From NCBI GenBank assembly GCA_018897195.1, contig JAHILH010000001.1:412565-476564 (forward strand): a stretch of DNA of 64,000 bases. Reading direction: 5' to 3'. Shown here in pieces: positions 49,896 to 61,919 of the stretch. Each line of letters opens with the position of its first letter. Position 1 is the first letter of the stretch. The position numbers and the translations under genes were made by a program. The notes under the pieces were generated by a model, which had not been told where the DNA came from, made no database searches, and worked only from the letters and a program-made list of their open reading frames with translations. Source of the DNA: Patescibacteria group bacterium (lineage in GTDB: Bacteria; Patescibacteriota; Patescibacteriia; Patescibacteriales; UBA12075).

Positions 49896-52655
49896 CTATT
49901 GACAAGCCTCACAATCTGGATTGTCAATCAGACAAGCCTTCGGGGCAGCGACTAGATTGTCGCCACCAGAGGCCTCCGGCGCACCCGCTTCAGTCGCAGG
50001 CATTTCGATGGTTTTAGTTATTTGTGACGCTGCCAAAGTGCGCAAATAGTAAGTCGTCTTCAAACCAGTCTTCCAGGCATCGATATAAATATCACTTAAT
50101 ATTTTACCACTACTTGTCGTCACAAAAATATTTGTCGACGCACTCTGGTCAATCCATTTGCCACGGTAAGCGGCGGCGCGCACCACCCAGTGAGGCTCGA
50201 TTTCAAAAGTTTCGCGATACTTGTTTTTTAATCTTTCGGGAATGACCGGAATATTTGCAATCGAGCCATTGTCATATTTTATCGCTTCAAGAATTTGCTT
50301 ATTCCAAAGATTTTCCGCCATCAAATCATCCACCAGATATTTATTCAGCACCAAAAAACTACCAGACATATTTTCTTTGCTGTAAATATTTTTGAAAATC
50401 GGTTCCACGCACGGAATCGCACCAGCAATATTTGAAATTGTGGCCGTTGGCGCAATCGCCAAACAATTTGAATTACGCATGCCTTGTCGACTTATTTTGT
50501 CGCGCAAGCCCGCCCAATCCAGTGTATAATTTTTATCAATCGCGAGCGGAACATTTCTTTCTGCCTCAAGTAGACCCAAGGTGTCAATCGGCAATAATCC
50601 CCGACTCCATTTGCTACCCGGATAGGATTGATAAACTCCCCGCTCCTTGGCTAAGTCTGAACTCGCTTCCAATGCGCAAAACGAAATATATTCCATAGAG
50701 CGATCTGCAAATTTCCAATTAGCCTCACTGGCAAAATCAATGTCGACTTGATATAAAGCATCCTGATAACCCATCAAGCCAAGACCAACCGCCCGATGGC
50801 GACTATTGGCTGTTTCGGTTTCTTTGATAGTATAAAAATTAATATCAATCACATTGTCCAACATGCGCATCCCGCTCGTAACTGTTTGTCGAATCAAATC
50901 CTTGTCTAACTCGCCATCGCAAATCATTCGTGCCAGGTTCAAACTAGCCAAATTACAAACTGCCACCTCGTCGGCCGAATTGTTCAGTGTAATTTCCGTG
51001 CATAAATTAGAATTGTGCACTACACCAACGTGATCTTGCGGTGAGCGCAAATTGCAGGGATCCTTGAAGGTAATCCAGGGATGTCCAGTTTCATACAACA
51101 TCGTCAAAATCTTTTTCCAGAGATCTTTGGCCGAAATTTGTCGCGCTCCTTGGATATTTGCTCTTTCGTATTCCTGATATTTTTCTTCAAACTTCTGGCC
51201 ATACAAATCGTGTAAGCCCGGAACGTCGTTTGGCGAAAACAAGGTCCAACTCTCATCATTCAAAACCCGCTTCATAAATAAATCAGGAATCCAACACGCC
51301 GGGTGAATATCGTGCGCCCGTCGGCGTTCGTCGCCGGTGTTTTTCTTTAACTCCAAAAATTCTTCAATATCGCCATGCCACACTTCTAAGTAAGCCGCCA
51401 AAGCCCCGCGCCGTTTCCCGCCCTGGTTCACTGCCACTGCAATATCATTAAAGATTTTAATAAAAGGAATAATCCCCTGTGAATCACCGTTGGTTCCCTT
51501 AATCTTGGAGCCCATGGCCCGCACCGGCGTCCAATCAGTCCCGACGCCACCAGACCACTTGGACATACTCGCCACATCACTGAACGATTTAAAAATACCC
51601 GCAATCGAATCTTCAATTGTATTCAAGTAGCAAGAGCTCAACTGACTATGTGTGGTGCCGCTATTAAACAAGGTTGGTGTTGAAGGCAACAATAAAAATT
51701 GTGACATCACATTATAAAACTCAATCGCCCGCTCCTCGCGATTATCTTCGCGCAAGGCCAAGCCCATCGCCACCCGCATCCACAACCATTGCGGTAATTC
51801 AAAAATTTGGCGGGGCTTTGTCGGCGTTTTTAACAAATAGCGGTCATGCACAGTTTGCGCTCCCAGATATTGAAAATTATCATCACGTGTTTTATCCAAG
51901 GCCTTGGCCAATTTCAACAAATCAAAATTAGCTAATTCCGGATTAAGCAATTCGTAACCAATCCCATTGGCAATATAATCAATAAAGCCTTGTTGGTATT
52001 TTTTTATACTCAAATCTTCTCCCAGTAGCACTTTGTCATAATCAAGACCCAACACCTCTTCATAAAGCTGGTCCCATAACAAACGCGCGGCCAGGAAAGA
52101 ATAATTGTAATGCTTTTCGACCAATGACGTAGCCGCGTTAATAATCGTCTTTTTTAATTCGCTCACCTTGATGCCCTCGTATAGATTTTTTTTAATCTCG
52201 GCCAACACCAGGGCTTGGTCAATAAAGTCCAGCCCCTTGGCCATAGTTGTCAATTTGGCCACAATTTTTGCTTCAGAAAAAACTTCCGCCAAACCGTCAT
52301 TGTTCACAATCTTAAAAGCATGATGCGCAATTGAGTCCTGTACCTGTTTTTTCTCCGCTTCCCGCAATTTGGCATGCTCGGAGCGATAAATAATAAATTT
52401 TCTCGCGACATCATAGGCGCCCGCAGCCATCAAAACCTCCTCGATGACATTCTGTACATTCTCCACGCTCAGTGTTTTTTCCTGATCAATATAATCAATT
52501 TGTATTCGATTTATAACCTGGGAATAAAGCTCGTCCAACGACCAGCGCTCAGTTTGATTAACGGCAGCCACAGCTTTGGCGATTACCATTTTAATTTTAT
52601 CCGCCTCAAAATCGGCCAATAAACCATTTCTTTTTGTGATTTTGTATAAATCCAT
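49896..52655 (-). CDS. nrdA: ribonucleotide reductase class I alpha subunit with N-terminal ATP-cone
   Basis: ATP-cone KRNGLLADFEADKI, catalytic NLCTEI, and a C-terminal CxxC tail (DNPDCEAC). The ATG at 52655 is preferred because the track extension covers the promoter and NrdR boxes. Confidence 0.9.
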   Translation of the reverse strand: MDLYKITKRNGLLADFEADKIKMVIAKAVAAVNQTERWSLDELYSQVINRIQIDYIDQEKTLSVENVQNVIEEVLMAAGAYDVARKFIIYRSEHAKLREAEKKQVQDSIAHHAFKIVNNDGLAEVFSEAKIVAKLTTMAKGLDFIDQALVLAEIKKNLYEGIKVSELKKTIINAATSLVEKHYNYSFLAARLLWDQLYEEVLGLDYDKVLLGEDLSIKKYQQGFIDYIANGIGYELLNPELANFDLLKLAKALDKTRDDNFQYLGAQTVHDRYLLKTPTKPRQIFELPQWLWMRVAMGLALREDNREERAIEFYNVMSQFLLLPSTPTLFNSGTTHSQLSSCYLNTIEDSIAGIFKSFSDVASMSKWSGGVGTDWTPVRAMGSKIKGTNGDSQGIIPFIKIFNDIAVAVNQGGKRRGALAAYLEVWHGDIEEFLELKKNTGDERRRAHDIHPACWIPDLFMKRVLNDESWTLFSPNDVPGLHDLYGQKFEEKYQEYERANIQGARQISAKDLWKKILTMLYETGHPWITFKDPCNLRSPQDHVGVVHNSNLCTEITLNNSADEVAVCNLASLNLARMICDGELDKDLIRQTVTSGMRMLDNVIDINFYTIKETETANSRHRAVGLGLMGYQDALYQVDIDFASEANWKFADRSMEYISFCALEASSDLAKERGVYQSYPGSKWSRGLLPIDTLGLLEAERNVPLAIDKNYTLDWAGLRDKISRQGMRNSNCLAIAPTATISNIAGAIPCVEPIFKNIYSKENMSGSFLVLNKYLVDDLMAENLWNKQILEAIKYDNGSIANIPVIPERLKNKYRETFEIEPHWVVRAAAYRGKWIDQSASTNIFVTTSSGKILSDIYIDAWKTGLKTTYYLRTLAASQITKTIEMPATEAGAPEASGGDNLVAAPKACLIDNPDCEACQ

Positions 52656-52677
52656 ATTTTTTTCATTTAGTGCGCTT

Positions 52678-52733
52678 ATACTACAGCTAGTATACAACTA
52701 CTTAATTATACCACAAGATGTAGTGTTGACCAA
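52678..52733 (-). promoter_or_regulatory. nrdA promoter (TTGGTC-17-TATAAT) with two NrdR-box-like palindromes
   Basis: Box at 52711-52726 (plus strand ccacaagatgtagtgt) lies in the spacer. Box at 52678-52693 (atactacagctagtat) lies just after the -10. Both fit acaCwAnAtnTwGtgt. Confidence 0.55.
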
Positions 52734-54032: not shown

Positions 54033-55229
54033 TTACAATTCCAATCTTTCAGCCACATAATCAACATCCTTATCACCCCTACCAGATAAGTTAACTATTA
54101 TTATTTCTTCTTTTTTGAGCGTTGGAGATAGCTTGATTGCATGAGCGATGGCATGGGCACTTTCAAGGGCTGGAATTATTCCCTCTGTCTTGCTAAGTTC
54201 CAAAAAAGCACCAAGCGCCTCTTTGTCATTTATACAAACATATTCAACACGTCCCTTGTCTTTTAAATCAGCATGCACTGGACCGACACCAGGATAATCA
54301 AGACCGGAAGCGATTGAATGGACCGGCAAAGGCTCACCCTTCTCATCTTGAAGTAAATAAGTCATCATACCATGCAGAGCGCCTTTCTTGCCGAGTGTCA
54401 AAGTAGCGGCATGCTCACCGTCCTTAAAGCTTTTTCCAGAAGGCTCCACTCCAATCATCTTCACGTCATCATTCAAAAATTCATGAAAAAGGCCGATGGC
54501 ATTAGAACCGCCACCCACGCAGGCGATTAAATAATCCGGCAACACTCCCTCCTTCTCACCAATCTGCACTTTTGCCTCTCTCCCGATAATCGATTGAAAG
54601 TCTCGAACAATCATCGGATACGGATGAGGACCGACAACGGATCCGATGGCAAAAAAGATATTTTGCGGATCACTCAAAAATGTTTCAAAGGCACTATCAA
54701 CCGCATCCTTCAAGCATTTTCCACCACTCGTCACGCTAACCACCTTTGCGCCTAGTAATTTCATTCTCAAAACATTTTGATGTTGTTTTTTGATATCTAT
54801 TTCGCCCATATGGATTTCGCAATCAATTCCCACTATAGCTGCAGCCGTTGCCAGGGCCACCCCGTGCTGTCCTGCTCCCGTTTCAGCTAACAACTTTTTC
54901 TTCCCCATTCTCTTCGCCAACAATGCCTCTCCCAGGGTGTGATTAATCTTATGAGCGCCAGTGTGATTTAGATCTTCTCTTTTTAGATATATCTTTGCTC
55001 CACCAAGCTTTTCTGATAAATTTTTCGCATAATAAAGCGGAGAAGGTCTGCCGACATAGTCACGCAAGAGCATCTGATATTCTTCCAGAAAACTCTCATC
55101 CTCTATCGCCTCCCTGTAAGAAACATCTATTTCATCAAAGATTGTTTTTAGTTCCGGCGGTATAATTTGTCCGCCATATTCGCCATAATAGCCTTCTTTA
55201 TTTGGTAATACTTTTAAATTGTTTTTCAT
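54033..55229 (-). CDS. trpB: tryptophan synthase beta chain (stand-alone)
   Basis: GEYGGQIIP, the PLP-lysine motif [11 protein letters not shown], and GGGSNAIG. No trpA or other trp genes occur in the window. Confidence 0.9.
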
Positions 55230-55332
55230 ATATTTATTCTTAATTATTAATTATTTTAGAGATTATAAAACTTACGATTTGCATCGCCAATAATACGTCG
55301 CTCGGTTGTAAAAATAATATTTCATAAGACAA

Positions 55333-55421
55333 ATAAAAAAAGACTGCTCAATATCTATAATATTGAGCAGTCTTTAATAATTACAAAACAAAAAACATCT
55401 ACTCAATATTTTGAGCAGTCC
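55333..55421 (-). promoter_or_regulatory. transcription attenuator: alternative hairpins 1:2, 2:3 and 3:4, plus a U-run
   Basis: RNA reads GACUGCUCAA-AAUA-UUGAGUAG, then about 25 nt, then AGACUGCUCAAUAU-UAUAG-AUAUUGAGCAGUCU-UUUUUU. Segment 2 (AUAUUGAGUAG) can pair with segment 3 (CUGCUCAAUAU). Confidence 0.65.
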
Positions 55422-55455
55422 ACCAGCTGTTATTTTGTAATGCTTGTAACTTCAT
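55399..55455 (-). CDS. 18-codon trp leader peptide with tandem Trp codons
   Basis: ATG AAG TTA CAA GCA TTA CAA AAT AAC AGC TGG TGG ACT GCT CAA AAT ATT GAG TAG encodes MKLQALQNNSWWTAQNIE. The TGGTGG abuts segment 1 and the stop lies inside segment 2. Confidence 0.6.
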   Translation of the reverse strand: MKLQALQNNSWWTAQNIE

Positions 55456-55461
55456 AATTGA

Positions 55462-55490
55462 ACTATATCACAACTTATTAAAAATTGCAA
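55462..55490 (-). promoter_or_regulatory. promoter TTGCAA-17-TATAGT, predicted to give a leaderless leader-peptide mRNA
   Basis: Minus-strand TTGCAA at 55490-55485 and TATAGT at 55467-55462. The ATG begins 6 nt after the -10, and no SD is present. Confidence 0.5.
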
Positions 55491-55560
55491 TATTCACGTC
55501 ATTTGTAAATATTTCGTTTCTATTTTCATAATTATTTTTTCACTATAATAAAATTAGTGT

Positions 55561-56265
55561 CTACGTAAGACTTCTGATTTTCAATATTAAATTTGGATCT
55601 GGACAGACATCTAAATAAAATTCTTTTTTCGATTTTGCTGCCACCCCGGGAAAATCGCCAGACTTGCCCATTAAATCGGTAATAATTTCAAAATGAAGAT
55701 GTGATGGCCAGCCGCCATTTTCTTTATAATTTCCGATAGTTCCTACTTTATCTCCTTTGTGAAAAATTTTGCCAACAACCCAATCACTCATTGAACTTCT
55801 AGAGAGATGACCATAGAGGGTCCAGAATTTAACACCATTAATAAAATGTTCCAAGATTAAAGTCGGACCATAATCCCCAAAAGCATCATTATCCTGAAAA
55901 CTATGAACAATCGAATCAAGTGGCGTACTAATCTCCACGCCTGCCTCAACCCAGATATCAATTCCCAGATGAATAGTTCTTGACTCTTCTTTTGATTTAA
56001 AAAGATCACTCTTTCGATAAATTATTCGGTCCTCATCATATCTTCCGATTCCATATCTAGCATCCTGATTCCCGATTTCGTCTGAGATATACTGAGAAAA
56101 ACTTTCCGGATTGCCCACATCCACTTTTTCCAACTTTTCATCTTGGCAGGAAAAATCAAAAATCGTCGCACGTTTTTCGTTAAGATTAAAGGGAAAGATT
56201 TCTCCGATTTCCGAAGAAATGTCTTTCAATAATCTTTTTACCTCTAATGATTTTGATGAATGCAT
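55561..56265 (-). CDS. M23-family peptidase-like protein without signal peptide
   Basis: HLGIDIWVEAG, YGHLS and SHLHFEI motifs. Confidence 0.7.
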   Translation of the reverse strand: MHSSKSLEVKRLLKDISSEIGEIFPFNLNEKRATIFDFSCQDEKLEKVDVGNPESFSQYISDEIGNQDARYGIGRYDEDRIIYRKSDLFKSKEESRTIHLGIDIWVEAGVEISTPLDSIVHSFQDNDAFGDYGPTLILEHFINGVKFWTLYGHLSRSSMSDWVVGKIFHKGDKVGTIGNYKENGGWPSHLHFEIITDLMGKSGDFPGVAAKSKKEFYLDVCPDPNLILKIRSLT

Positions 56266-61764: not shown

Positions 61765-61848
61765 GAAAAAGTAATTATCTACACAAAATATCTAGTAAAA
61801 CACCAATATCCAACTATGTAGAAATTCTAAGCACTAAAAACTATTATG

Positions 61849-61919
61849 CACGGGTGGTAAGAATCGAACTCACGCTAGAGGTTTTGGAGACCCCTGTACT
61901 ACCATTATACTACACCCGC
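61849..61919 (-). tRNA. tRNA-Trp (anticodon CCA)
   Basis: Minus strand reads GCGGGTG TA GTATAATGGTAGTAC A GGGGT CTCCAAA ACCTC TAGC GTGAGTTCGATTCTTAC CACCCGT G. The anticodon loop is CT-CCA-AA. Confidence 0.85.

What the first reader, a model, noticed from the sequence alone, without database searches (positions are those of the whole stretch)
55333..55490. Classical ribosome-mediated trp attenuator (tandem-Trp leader peptide plus three alternative hairpins) upstream of a stand-alone trpB
Seen on the minus strand between the M23 gene stop and trpB:
- A TTGCAA-17-TATAGT promoter is followed 6 nt later by ATG AAG TTA CAA GCA TTA CAA AAT AAC AGC TGG TGG ACT GCT CAA AAT ATT GAG TAG, encoding MKLQALQNNSWWTAQNIE.
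- The two Trp codons directly abut segment 1 (GACUGCUCAA).
- Segment 1 pairs with segment 2 (UUGAGUAG; 8 bp, loop AAUA). The leader stop codon lies inside segment 2.
- Segment 2, extended to AUAUUGAGUAG, can instead pair over 11 bp (one G-U) with segment 3 (CUGCUCAAUAU).
- Segments 3 and 4 form a perfect 14-bp hairpin followed by UUUUUUAUUU, about 100 nt upstream of the trpB ATG.
- Segments 1 and 3 share an identical 10-mer, and segments 2 and 4 differ by one base.

Established knowledge: this is exactly the logic of the E. coli trpL attenuator. A ribosome stalled at the Trp codons frees segment 2, giving the 2:3 antiterminator. Full translation to the stop masks segment 2, giving the 3:4 terminator.

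Inference: trpB is controlled by charged tRNA-Trp availability. The absence of an SD and the -10 to ATG spacing suggest the leader peptide is translated from a leaderless mRNA. To my knowledge this mechanism has not been described for small-genome CPR-like bacteria with an orphan trpB, which presumably salvages indole; I could not check the literature.
Basis: partly seen in the sequence, partly recalled or inferred. Interest (0 to 1): 0.8.

Follow-up and report, generated by a model that had tools for sequence, protein, structure and literature searches.

The report
Tryptophan attenuator upstream of CPR trpB
A small-genome Parcubacteria bacterium controls its lone tryptophan-synthase beta gene with a classical tandem-Trp leader-peptide attenuator, conserved across dozens of related lineages and followed by a second, unexplained conserved mini-gene.

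Summary

**Anatomy in the window (minus strand).** A TTGCAA-17-TATAGT promoter ends 6 nt before an 18-codon ORF, MKLQALQNNSWWTAQNIE. The ORF is followed by three alternative pairings: 1:2 at -8.9, 2:3 at about -11 to -13 and 3:4 at -22.5 kcal/mol. A U-run follows, 109 nt upstream of a genuine trpB.

**Comparative evidence.** I examined 33 Patescibacteria-type trpB loci.
- 25 carry the same module: a short ORF with in-frame WW, usually 6 codons before a stop inside segment 2, then a terminator.
- Five of the other eight, checked by eye, have a single-Trp ORF at the same position.
- The stems belong to several unrelated sequence families, yet all three pairings persist.
- In 23 of 25 loci segment 2 is the best partner of segment 3.
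- A -10 box ends exactly 6 nt before the ATG in 20 of 21 loci, which supports a leaderless leader mRNA.

**Novelty.** No Rfam, Pfam or NCBIfam family matches. I found no paper describing this in CPR bacteria. It is a new member of a known kind.

**Unexpected extra.** A second conserved upstream ORF (55325..55272, MKYYFYNRATYYWRCKS) lies between the terminator and trpB. It is under purifying selection (pN/pS 0.17-0.33), whereas the leader is near neutral. Its function is unknown.

The parts
55462..55490 (-). Sigma-70-type promoter: -35 TTGCAA (55490..55485), 17-nt spacer, extended -10 TGaTATAGT (hexamer 55467..55462). The -10 ends 6 nt before the leader ATG.
   Evidence: In 20 of 21 related promoter-bearing loci a TAnnnT box sits at exactly the same offset. 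In 17 of 21 a TTG -35 lies 16-18 nt upstream.
55399..55455 (-). Leader peptide ORF1, MKLQALQNNSWWTAQNIE*. The tandem Trp codons TGGTGG lie at 55425..55420, and the TAG stop at 55401..55399 lies inside segment 2.
   Evidence: A WW ORF is conserved in 25 of 33 loci, usually with 6 codons from WW to the stop. Its amino-acid sequence is near neutral, with pN/pS 0.6-0.8.
55411..55418 (-). Segment 1 (CUGCUCAA). It starts 2 nt after the second Trp codon, so it lies inside the footprint of a ribosome stalled with that codon in the A site.
   Evidence: Covariation with segment 2 was counted.
55399..55409 (-). Segment 2 (AUAUUGAGUAG). It pairs either with segment 1 (8 bp, -8.9 kcal/mol) or with segment 3 (11 bp, about -11 to -13 kcal/mol, the antiterminator).
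55384..55398 (-). U-rich tract (AUGUUUUUUGUUUUG) directly after hairpin 1:2. Together they look like a terminator, so this is a candidate RNA-polymerase pause site or early terminator.
   Evidence: One search lists hairpin 1:2 with its tail as terminator-like. A U-rich tract follows hairpin 1:2 in the related loci (sequences). The function is inferred.
55339..55375 (-). Intrinsic terminator hairpin. Segment 3 is the 5' arm (55375..55359) and segment 4 is the 3' arm (55355..55339). The stem has 17 bp. CUGCUCAAUAU (55370..55360) is the part of segment 3 that can pair with segment 2 instead.
   Evidence: -22.5 kcal/mol, z = -9.0. A terminator is present in all 25 WW loci.
55331..55338 (-). U-run of the terminator (UUUUAUUU).
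55272..55325 (-). ORF2, a second conserved upstream ORF, MKYYFYNRATYYWRCKS*. Its single Trp codon is at 55289..55287. The consensus is [FY][IY]F.[NHQ][HR][CA]T[EY][FY]W[RQ]. Function unknown.
   Evidence: It is present in about 27 related loci. pN/pS is 0.17-0.33 in frame and 0.5-4.6 out of frame. No consensus RNA structure was found. No Pfam or NCBIfam family matches.
55274..55288 (-). Small hairpin GGCGA-UGCAAA-UCGU that starts in the Trp-Arg codons of ORF2. It is followed by AAGUUUUAU. Support is weak.
   Evidence: The mean z over 28 loci is -0.94, and 6 of 28 loci reach p <= 0.05 individually.
54033..55229 (-). trpB, tryptophan synthase beta subunit (398 aa), the regulated gene. No other trp gene lies in the window.
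   Evidence: TIGR00263 scores 568.5 bits against a cut-off of 392. The protein is 100% identical to a Candidatus Parcubacteria TrpB. Neighbouring genes are unrelated to tryptophan. tblastn found no TrpA or TrpR in the window.

Best explanation
This is a ribosome-mediated, leader-peptide transcription attenuator. It makes expression of a stand-alone trpB depend on the supply of charged tRNA-Trp.

Proposed mechanism:
1. Transcription starts at or within a base of the A of the leader ATG, giving a leaderless mRNA. A 70S ribosome can therefore load as soon as the 5' end emerges.
2. Hairpin 1:2 and its U-tract probably pause RNA polymerase until the ribosome arrives.
3. When Trp-tRNA is scarce, the ribosome stalls at the tandem UGG codons. 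Its footprint covers segment 1. Segment 2 is left free and pairs with segment 3. The terminator cannot form, so polymerase reads on into ORF2 and trpB.
4. When Trp-tRNA is plentiful, the ribosome runs to the UAG stop inside segment 2 and masks it. Segments 3 and 4 then form the 17-bp terminator and transcription stops about 100 nt before trpB.
5. Without any translation, 1:2 and 3:4 both form and transcription also terminates.

What is shown: the sequence elements, their energetics, their geometry, and their conservation and covariation across Patescibacteria.

What is inferred: the transcription start, the pause, the stalling, and the Trp response.

A second conserved upstream ORF (ORF2) lies on the readthrough transcript. 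It is evidently translated and selected for its peptide sequence. It probably adds a second control layer whose mechanism is unknown.
For: - Anatomy in the window.
- The regulated gene is a true TrpB from a Parcubacteria genome.
- 25 of 33 related loci have a WW ORF plus a terminator. Five of the other eight, read by eye, have a single-Trp ORF at the same position. The upstream neighbours differ between loci.
- The WW-to-stop distance is 6 codons in most loci, and the stop lies inside or at the end of segment 2.
- Covariation of hairpin 1:2: 86.9% of cells paired against 33-50% when slid, 6 of 8 pairs with compensatory changes, and 0 of 500 shuffles reaching the observed score.
- The 2:3 pairing is present in all 25 loci. 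Its z against shuffles is mostly -3 to -5.8. Cognate pairings average -14.1 kcal/mol and non-cognate -8.4. Segment 2 is the top-ranked partner of segment 3 in 23 of 25 loci.
- The full-length minimum-free-energy fold is the terminated form, with 1:2 and 3:4. With segment 1 removed, 2:3 forms.
- The -10 box ends 6 nt before the ATG in 20 of 21 loci.
- The leader peptide sequence itself is near neutral (pN/pS 0.6-0.8). This is expected when only the Trp codons and the RNA matter.
- Trp-related neighbours in relatives: trpR-leader-trpB-trpS in L165, and tRNA-Trp directly upstream in L002 and L163.
Against: - There is no experimental evidence of any kind: no mapped transcript ends and no Trp response.
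- In the window the terminator (-22.5 kcal/mol) is far more stable than the antiterminator (-11 to -13 kcal/mol). Readthrough must therefore be kinetic, as in other attenuators.
- A promoter-like TTGGCG-17-TATAAT (10 of 12 matches) lies downstream of the terminator at 55290..55262 and could drive trpB independently. Its -10 is not kept even in the 96%-identical relative L162.
- Some relatives have only one Trp codon in the leader, which would make a less sensitive sensor.
- No curated RNA family matches. The best related hit is Bacteroid-trp at 21.7 bits against a threshold of 49.
- In one search the ATG was chosen, among in-frame ATGs, as the one with the best -10 match. This slightly inflates the 20-of-21 figure.
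Confidence: 0.85

Rival explanations
1. The 17-bp hairpin is simply the terminator of the upstream M23 peptidase gene. The WW ORF and the 1:2 and 2:3 pairings are chance features of AT-rich intergenic DNA.
For: The hairpin lies downstream of the M23 stop at 55561 on the same strand. Terminator-like and promoter-like motifs are frequent in AT-rich sequence; 9 promoter-like sites were found against 9.7 expected.
Against: The whole module travels with trpB, not with the upstream gene. In relatives the upstream gene is an HD protein, rubrerythrin, tRNA-Trp, TspO or TrpR. The WW ORF, the hairpins and the terminator are kept in 25 of 33 loci, with covariation.
Confidence: 0.02
2. The alternative hairpins are real, but the switch is thrown by a trans-acting factor rather than by a translating ribosome. 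Candidates are a TRAP-like RNA-binding protein, uncharged tRNA-Trp as in a T-box, or a TrpR-like protein.
For: TrpR-like genes sit directly upstream of the leader in several relatives. The invariant UGGC in ORF2 could in principle pair with a GCCA acceptor end of tRNA-Trp. That is my own speculation and was not tested.
Against: - There is no array of (G/U)AG repeats; the longest run is 1.
- No T-box or other riboswitch model matches at Rfam thresholds.
- The ATG, the reading frame, the in-frame WW and the in-frame stop inside segment 2 are all conserved, while the remaining codons drift. That pattern is the signature of translation-coupled sensing.
- No TrpR is found in the window.
Confidence: 0.05
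3. trpB is mainly transcribed from its own promoter downstream of the terminator (TTGGCG-17-TATAAT, 55290..55262). The upstream module produces only a short leader RNA or peptide with some other role, for example a trans-acting attenuator sRNA.
For: That site is the best promoter match in the region, 10 of 12. From my own knowledge, not checked here, attenuator RNAs can act in trans, as with rnTrpL in Sinorhizobium.
Against: The -10 hexamer is not conserved in L162, L163, L164 or the more distant loci. The TTGGCG part is explained by the conserved Trp-Arg codons of ORF2. ORF2 lies between the terminator and this site and is under purifying selection, so it needs a transcript coming from upstream.
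Confidence: 0.06

Closest known systems
E. coli trpL (TrpL) leader-peptide attenuator of trpEDCBA
   Same: - A short leader ORF with tandem Trp codons near its end.
- Four segments giving mutually exclusive 1:2, 2:3 and 3:4 pairings.
- An intrinsic terminator before the first structural gene.
- A stop codon placed so that a terminating ribosome masks segment 2.
- A 1:2 hairpin that can act as a pause signal.
The model is summarised in PMC7755916.
   Different: - There is no sequence or covariance-model homology. Rfam Trp_leader did not appear even among sub-threshold hits.
- The leader is apparently leaderless, whereas E. coli trpL is SD-led.
- It controls a single orphan trpB rather than a full operon.
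- Segment 1 starts just after the Trp codons rather than containing them.
- A second conserved upstream ORF follows the terminator.
- The host is a Patescibacteria (CPR) bacterium.
Bacteroid-trp (Rfam RF01692), the Bacteroidetes tryptophan peptide leader RNA (PMC2864571)
   Same: It is a Trp-codon leader upstream of trp genes in a lineage that uses few SD sequences. It is the only functionally related Rfam model to give any hit, across the whole model at 55365..55470(-).
   Different: The score is 21.7 bits against a gathering threshold of 49, with E = 2.8-6.6. That is not significant. None of 20 related loci reaches the threshold.
Leaderless polycysteine short-ORF attenuators of mycobacteria (bioRxiv 10.1101/834739; PMC4633059)
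   Same: The regulatory upstream ORF begins at the 5' end of a leaderless transcript. Runs of codons for the sensed amino acid control downstream operon genes.
   Different: The amino acid is Cys rather than Trp, and the phylum is different. I did not compare the mechanistic details. Here a canonical terminator and antiterminator are evident.
Chlamydia trachomatis trpRBA indole-salvage operon (PMC7755916, PMC6504234)
   Same: - A reduced-genome, host-dependent bacterium keeps trpB for tryptophan salvage.
- Expression is under Trp-dependent control.
- A TrpR gene lies directly upstream of trpB, as in the relatives L165, L082, L038 and L092.
   Different: - The annotated chlamydial TrpL is 59 aa, lacks tandem Trp codons and is considered a poor, unvalidated attenuator. 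Attenuation there is exerted in trans through YtgR.
- Here the cis attenuator is canonical and conserved.
- No trpA and no trpR lie next to trpB in the window.
Metabolite-responsive or intrinsic ribosome-arrest leader peptides: TnaC (PMC8429421, PMC8450073), SpeFL (bioRxiv 10.1101/604074), PepNL (PMC11890864). This comparison concerns ORF2 only.
   Same: A short upstream ORF of 14-17 conserved codons lies before a metabolic gene. Its amino-acid sequence, not just its codons, is under selection. It contains a conserved Trp.
   Different: - No sequence similarity was detected and no family matched.
- The stop-codon position is not conserved, unlike TnaC and PepNL, which arrest at their stop codons.
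- No arrest has been shown.

Membership tests
Leader-peptide (ribosome-mediated) transcription attenuators, trpL type | A short ORF with consecutive codons for the regulating amino acid, immediately upstream of a gene of that amino acid's pathway | tested here: met
   The ORF is MKLQALQNNSWWTAQNIE* upstream of TIGR00263 trpB. A WW ORF is found in 25 of 33 related loci.
Leader-peptide (ribosome-mediated) transcription attenuators, trpL type | An intrinsic terminator (G+C-containing hairpin plus U-run) between the leader ORF and the structural gene | tested here: met
   A 17-bp stem with UUUUAUUU, -22.5 kcal/mol, z = -9.0. It is present in all 25 WW loci.
Leader-peptide (ribosome-mediated) transcription attenuators, trpL type | An antiterminator (2:3) that is mutually exclusive with both 1:2 and 3:4 | tested here: met
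   In the window the pairing is 11 bp, at -13.2 kcal/mol (RNAduplex) or -11.3 (folded in context). It is present in all 25 loci, with cognate pairings much stronger than non-cognate ones. Segment 2 is the best partner of segment 3 in 23 of 25 loci.
Leader-peptide (ribosome-mediated) transcription attenuators, trpL type | Geometry: a ribosome stalled at the regulatory codons masks segment 1 but not segment 2, and a ribosome at the stop codon masks segment 2 | tested here: met
   Segment 1 occupies positions +5 to +12 from the first base of the second UGG. The stop codon is the 3' end of segment 2. Hairpin 1:2 keeps a fixed register relative to WW across 24 sequences. The footprint size used is established knowledge, not measured here.
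Leader-peptide (ribosome-mediated) transcription attenuators, trpL type | Conservation of the structure with compensatory changes in related genomes | tested here: met
   For hairpin 1:2, 6 of 8 pairs show changes on both sides and 0 of 500 shuffles reach the observed score. At least four unrelated stem sequence families keep all three pairings.
Leader-peptide (ribosome-mediated) transcription attenuators, trpL type | Readthrough increases on starvation for the amino acid and depends on translation of the leader | not testable with these tools
   This needs Term-seq or a reporter, or an in vitro coupled system, with and without Trp.
Rfam Trp leader families (RF00513 Trp_leader, RF01692 Bacteroid-trp) | A covariance-model score at or above the family's gathering threshold | tested here: not met
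   Nothing reaches gathering in the window or in 20 related loci. Bacteroid-trp scores 21.7 bits against 49, and RF00513 is not listed even at E <= 10.
Leaderless regulatory upstream ORFs (mycobacterial type) | The transcript 5' end coincides with the start codon of the upstream ORF | tested here: inconclusive
   The -10 TAnnnT ends exactly 6 nt before the ATG in 20 of 21 loci, and a -35 TTG is present in 17 of 21. This predicts a start at or next to the A of the ATG. The 5' end itself is unmapped.
TRAP-mediated trp attenuation (Bacillus type) | An array of 9-11 (G/U)AG triplets separated by 2-3 nt in the leader | tested here: not met
   Six triplets occur in 272 nt, and the longest properly spaced run is 1.
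T-box riboswitch | A match to the T-box covariance model (Stem I specifier loop plus T-box antiterminator) | tested here: not met
   No T-box hit at the gathering or E <= 10 thresholds.
Ribosome-arrest regulatory peptides (TnaC, SpeFL, PepNL type), considered for ORF2 only | The peptide sequence, not merely codon identity, is required. [quoted passage not shown] | tested here: met
   pN/pS is 0.17 (n = 10) and 0.33 (n = 8) in frame, against 0.5-4.6 out of frame. ORF1 in the same loci gives 0.6-0.8.
Ribosome-arrest regulatory peptides (TnaC, SpeFL, PepNL type), considered for ORF2 only | Demonstrated ribosome stalling at a defined codon, with or without a ligand | not testable with these tools
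   This needs toeprinting or ribosome profiling. The variable stop position argues against arrest at the stop codon.

The most novel reading that the evidence does not exclude
The second upstream ORF (ORF2, consensus ..[FY][IY]F.[NHQ][HR][CA]T[EY][FY]W[RQ]) may be a cis-acting regulatory nascent peptide specific to Patescibacteria trpB. It would stall the ribosome through its own sequence, possibly in response to free tryptophan or indole. That would gate trpB expression on transcripts that have already passed the attenuator. Together the two elements would form a two-sensor system, one reading charged tRNA-Trp and one reading a metabolite, in an organism with a reduced ribosome.
Probability: 0.2. 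Interest if true: 0.8.

Novelty: new member of a known kind. Interest (0 to 1): 0.55.

Why it matters
- Gene regulation in CPR/Patescibacteria is almost unexplored, because nearly all of these organisms are uncultured.
- A textbook ribosome-mediated attenuator is conserved here across many Patescibacteria lineages. This implies tight transcription-translation coupling and leaderless 70S initiation in these organisms.
- It identifies tryptophan supply as a quantity these cells monitor, probably through indole salvage by an orphan TrpB.
- It offers a compact, portable element for reporter or in vitro tests, and a marker readable in metatranscriptomes: the ratio of short leader transcript to readthrough reports in-situ Trp limitation.
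- The associated ORF2 is a concrete candidate for a new regulatory peptide.

Tried and rejected
- **Rfam.** Gathering and E <= 10 scans of the window and of 20 related loci found no significant family. The only related hit was Bacteroid-trp, below threshold, alongside spurious miRNA-type hairpin hits.
- **Genome-wide repeat.** GACTGCTCAA is not dispersed through the window, so the hairpins are not a repeat element.
- **MAFFT alignment of the whole leader (A1).** It is in register only for hairpin 1:2. The terminator and 2:3 regions have variable spacers, so I tested those by per-locus duplex energies and rank tests instead.
- **Sequence-copy test.** I asked whether segment 3 is a copy of segment 1 and segment 4 a copy of segment 2. 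This holds only in the window's close relatives, because G-U pairs decouple sequence from pairing. I dropped it as a general criterion.
- **RNAalifold on ORF2 to the trpB start.** It predicted no pairs. The window's own fold of that stretch has z = 0.17.
- **Small hairpin after the Trp-Arg codons of ORF2.** Support is only weak, so I do not claim it as a second terminator.
- **Own promoter for ORF2 or trpB.** No conserved -10 lies at leaderless spacing before ORF2 (sequences). The window's TTGGCG-17-TATAAT is not conserved.
- **TrpR or TrpA in the window.** None found by tblastn.
- **TRAP site.** None.
- **Pfam and NCBIfam scans of ORF1 and ORF2 peptides.** Nothing matched.
- **Literature.** Searches linking CPR/Patescibacteria with leader peptides, attenuation or trpB found no description of this element. 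One paper notes only that trpA and trpB occur in a minority of Patescibacteria genome bins (PMC8672522).
Full report
**1. What is in the sequence**

On the minus strand, between the stop of an M23 peptidase gene (55561) and the ATG of trpB (55229), I read the following elements.

- A promoter: TTGCAA (55490..55485), 17 nt, then TGaTATAGT with the -10 hexamer at 55467..55462.
- Six nucleotides later, the ORF 55455..55399. It translates to MKLQALQNNSWWTAQNIE*. Its tandem UGG codons lie at 55425..55420.
- Segment 1 (CUGCUCAA, 55418..55411) starts two bases after the second UGG.
- Segment 1 pairs with segment 2 (UUGAGUAG, 55406..55399). The last three bases of segment 2 are the leader stop codon. 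The hairpin has -8.9 kcal/mol and z = -4.2.
- A U-rich tract follows this hairpin. The scanner calls hairpin 1:2 with that tract terminator-like.
- Extended segment 2 (AUAUUGAGUAG) pairs over 11 bp with CUGCUCAAUAU (55370..55360). RNAduplex gives -13.2 kcal/mol. In context, with segment 1 removed, the fold gives -11.3 kcal/mol, z = -3.2.
- CUGCUCAAUAU is part of the 5' arm of a 17-bp terminator hairpin (55375..55339, -22.5 kcal/mol, z = -9.0). UUUUAUUU follows it.
- The full-length minimum-free-energy structure is the terminated form, with both 1:2 and 3:4 (-39.4 kcal/mol, z = -4.6).
- The 10-mer shared by segments 1 and 3 is confirmed, and it is not a dispersed repeat.

There are two small corrections. 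The terminator stem is 16-17 bp rather than 14, and it ends 109 nt before trpB.

**2. What the gene and organism are**

- The downstream gene is a genuine TrpB. TIGR00263 scores 568.5 bits against a cut-off of 392, and it is not the TrpB2-like family.
- It is 100% identical to a protein annotated from a Candidatus Parcubacteria bacterium.
- Its neighbours are M23, ASCH and S51 peptidase genes upstream, and NUDIX, CYTH and ribonucleotide reductase genes downstream.
- tblastn with TrpA and TrpR-like queries finds nothing in the 64-kb window. The rest of the genome could not be checked.
- Only about 10 of 52 large ORFs in the window have an SD-like motif. The usual start context is A/T-rich, typically ..ATATG. 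The lack of an SD before the leader is therefore not informative by itself.

**3. Comparative test**

I collected trpB loci from three sources:
- species-representative genomes;
- metagenomes;
- the contigs of the closest protein relatives, at 96, 87, 86, 82, 82 and 80% identity.

Thirty-three loci have TrpB at 70% identity or more to the window and at least 140 nt of upstream sequence. All of them look like Patescibacteria.

- In 25 of the 33 loci there is an ATG-initiated short ORF with in-frame WW, followed by a hairpin plus U-run.
- Five of the other eight, read by eye, have an ORF with a single Trp at the same position (sequences: L003, L004, L084, L091, L167).
- The distance from WW to the stop is 6 codons in most loci.
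- The gene upstream of the module differs from locus to locus. The module therefore belongs to trpB and not to the upstream gene.

**4. Structure conservation**

- *Hairpin 1:2.* Anchored on the invariant TGGTGG, it falls in one fixed register in 23 of 24 aligned sequences.
  - On alignment A1, 86.9% of cells form standard pairs, against 33-50% when the 3' partner is slid by 1-3 columns.
  - Six of 8 pairs show changes on both sides.
  - None of 500 shuffles reaches the observed covariation score.
- *Stem families.* Across loci the stems belong to unrelated sequence families: CUGCUCAA/UUGAGUAG, CUCAC/GUGGG, CCGCC/GGCGG and CUGCCC/GGGCAG. Every locus still keeps all three pairings.
- *Antiterminator 2:3.*
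  - Energies run from -8.5 to -18 kcal/mol, with a mean of -14.1.
  - Non-cognate combinations of segment 2 and segment 3 average -8.4.
  - z against shuffles is mostly between -3 and -5.8.
  - Every window of the 450-nt upstream region outside the terminator was tested as a partner for segment 3. Segment 2 ranked first in 23 of 25 loci.

**5. Leaderless start**

- In 20 of 21 loci that carry their own promoter, a TAnnnT hexamer ends exactly 6 nt before the leader ATG. The background frequency of this motif is 0.039 per position.
- In 17 of 21 loci a TTG -35 element lies 16-18 nt further upstream.
- Bacterial transcription usually starts 6-8 nt after the -10. That is established knowledge, not something measured here. 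It places the 5' end at or next to the A of the ATG.
- One caveat applies. Where several in-frame ATGs existed, my script chose the one with the best -10 match.
- Leaderless regulatory upstream ORFs have a precedent in the mycobacterial polycysteine attenuators (bioRxiv 10.1101/834739; PMC4633059).

**6. Mechanism**

The geometry fits the trpL model summarised in PMC7755916.

- With the second UGG in the A site, a ribosome footprint reaching about 12 nt downstream covers all of segment 1. Segment 2 is then free to pair with segment 3, and transcription reads through.
- A ribosome at the UAG stop buries segment 2, so 3:4 forms and terminates transcription.
- Without translation, 1:2 and 3:4 both form.
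- In the window 3:4 is much more stable than 2:3. The decision must therefore be kinetic and co-transcriptional.
- The conserved U-tract after hairpin 1:2 is a plausible pause site that synchronises the ribosome with the polymerase. This is an inference.
- The leader's amino-acid sequence is nearly neutral. pN/pS is 0.77 before WW and 0.62 after it. That is what one expects when only the Trp codons and the RNA pairing are selected.

**7. Rivals**

- *Terminator of the upstream gene plus chance.* Excluded by sections 3 and 4.
- *TRAP-type control.* Excluded by the absence of a (G/U)AG repeat array.
- *T-box or another riboswitch.* Excluded by the Rfam scans.
- *Independent trpB promoter.* A TTGGCG-17-TATAAT site lies at 55290..55262. 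It cannot be excluded for the window, but its -10 is not conserved even in the 96% relative. The TTGGCG is accounted for by conserved codons of ORF2.

**8. The unexpected part: ORF2**

Between the terminator and trpB lies a second ATG-initiated ORF, 55325..55272, MKYYFYNRATYYWRCKS*.

- About 27 related loci have it at the same place. The consensus is [FY][IY]F.[NHQ][HR][CA]T[EY][FY]W[RQ], with TGGC invariant.
- An nhmmer profile of its last 39 nt hits once per Patescibacteria-type locus, on the trpB strand.
  - The Trp-Arg end lies 41-58 nt from the trpB ATG in most loci.
  - The profile hits nowhere in about 130 loci from other phyla, and nowhere else in the window.
- Third codon positions vary most, with entropies of 0.88, 0.90 and 1.28 for positions 1, 2 and 3.
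- Pooled pN/pS is 0.17 for the FIFK-type group (n = 10) and 0.33 for the YYFY-type group that includes the window (n = 8). The two other frames give 0.5-4.6.

ORF2 is therefore translated, and its peptide sequence is selected, unlike ORF1.

- RNAalifold finds no consensus structure from ORF2 to the trpB start.
- A small hairpin starts in the Trp-Arg codons and is often followed by a U-run. It is only weakly supported, with a mean z of -0.94.
- The tail after Trp-Arg is variable.
  - It runs from 0 to about 20 codons.
  - The stop overlaps the trpB ATG in L010, L083 and L089.
  - The frame is fused with trpB in L002.
- Neither Pfam nor NCBIfam knows the peptide.

I cannot say what ORF2 does. 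Three candidates remain open:
- a sequence-dependent nascent-peptide control, with TnaC, SpeFL and PepNL as precedents (PMC8429421, bioRxiv 10.1101/604074, PMC11890864);
- a second Trp-codon checkpoint;
- delivery of ribosomes to the SD-less trpB start.

**9. Architectural variants**

- *Class A*, which includes the window: promoter, ORF1(WW), attenuator, ORF2, trpB.
- *Class B* (L082, L165, L038, and L085 without trpR): trpR-like gene, one leader with WW followed by Trp-Arg, terminator, trpB.
- *Class C* (L092): trpR-like gene, ORF2, trpB.

L165 encodes TrpR (TIGR01321), the leader, trpB and trpS in a row. In L002 and L163 a tRNA-Trp(CCA) gene sits immediately upstream of the leader promoter.

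**10. Comparison with what is known, and novelty**

- Functionally this is a trpL-type attenuator and meets every defining feature that can be tested in silico.
- It is not a member of any curated RNA family. Bacteroid-trp scores 21.7 bits against a threshold of 49, and RF00513 gives no hit.
- In the held literature I found no description of leader-peptide attenuation in CPR/Patescibacteria. One paper notes only that trpA and trpB occur in a minority of Patescibacteria genome bins (PMC8672522).
- The nearest biological analogue is the Chlamydia trpRBA salvage operon. Its annotated TrpL is atypical and unvalidated (PMC7755916).

I rate the attenuator a new member of a known kind. It is notable for three things: its host phylum, its leaderless leader, and its breadth of conservation. 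The conserved ORF2 is the element with real potential for novelty.

**Scores**

- Confidence in the attenuator reading: 0.85.
- Overall interest: 0.55.

Noticed in passing
window 55272..55325 (minus): A second conserved upstream ORF (ORF2, MKYYFYNRATYYWRCKS*) lies between the attenuator terminator and trpB. It is present in about 27 related loci and is under purifying selection (pN/pS 0.17-0.33). It shows no conserved RNA structure and matches no known family. Its function is unknown.
   Followed up: partly
window 55384..55418 (minus): Hairpin 1:2 is followed by a conserved U-rich tract and scores as terminator-like in its own right. It may be an RNA-polymerase pause site or an early terminator acting when the leader is not translated.
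   Followed up: partly
window 55262..55290 (minus): A promoter-like TTGGCG-17-TATAAT (10 of 12 matches) lies downstream of the terminator and overlaps the Trp-Arg codons of ORF2. Its -10 is not conserved, even in the 96%-identical relative L162.
   Followed up: yes
L002 2615-2686; L163 1165-1236; window 61848..61919 (minus): A tRNA-Trp(CCA) gene sits immediately upstream of the trpB leader promoter in two relatives. In the window the tRNA-Trp gene lies on the same strand, about 6.4 kb upstream.
   Followed up: partly
L165 973-3915; also L082, L038, L092, L166: A TrpR-family repressor gene lies directly upstream of the leader and trpB in several relatives. L165 has trpR (TIGR01321), the leader, trpB and trpS (TIGR00233) in a row. 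No TrpR is found in the window.
   Followed up: partly
whole window (52 ORFs of at least 110 aa): Only about 10 of 52 ORFs have an SD-like motif. Starts usually sit in an A/T-rich ..ATATG context. The TTG start listed for the ribonucleotide reductase ORF (top of 49896..52697, minus) lies 7 nt after a TATAAT. Nearly all genes are on the minus strand, and GC skew is negative throughout.
   Followed up: partly
L002, L010, L083, L089, L090 (ORF2 to trpB junction): The ORF2 stop codon position is not conserved. In L010, L083 and L089 it overlaps the trpB ATG (ATGA). In L090 it lies 8 nt past the ATG. In L002 ORF2 is in frame with trpB with no intervening stop. This suggests translational coupling in some lineages.
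   Followed up: no
L054, L057, L059, L060, L065, L072 (Maridesulfovibrio/Desulfovibrio); L058, L064, L144 (two labelled Leucobacter; L144 an unlabelled metagenome contig): Short ORFs with WWW (for example MNVSYSNFTLYFWWWRS) or WW (MHIVTQWWIA) lie 130-190 nt upstream of trpB in other phyla. An Arg codon often follows the Trp run, as in E. coli TrpL and in ORF2.
   Followed up: no
L005 4766-4877: A SAM riboswitch (RF00162, 54.5 bits) lies downstream of trpB in a related locus.
   Followed up: no
window 55494..55529 (minus): Another tiny ORF (MKIETKYLQMT*) lies between the M23 stop and the leader promoter. The corresponding region in L162 has a different sequence, so it is probably chance.
   Followed up: partly
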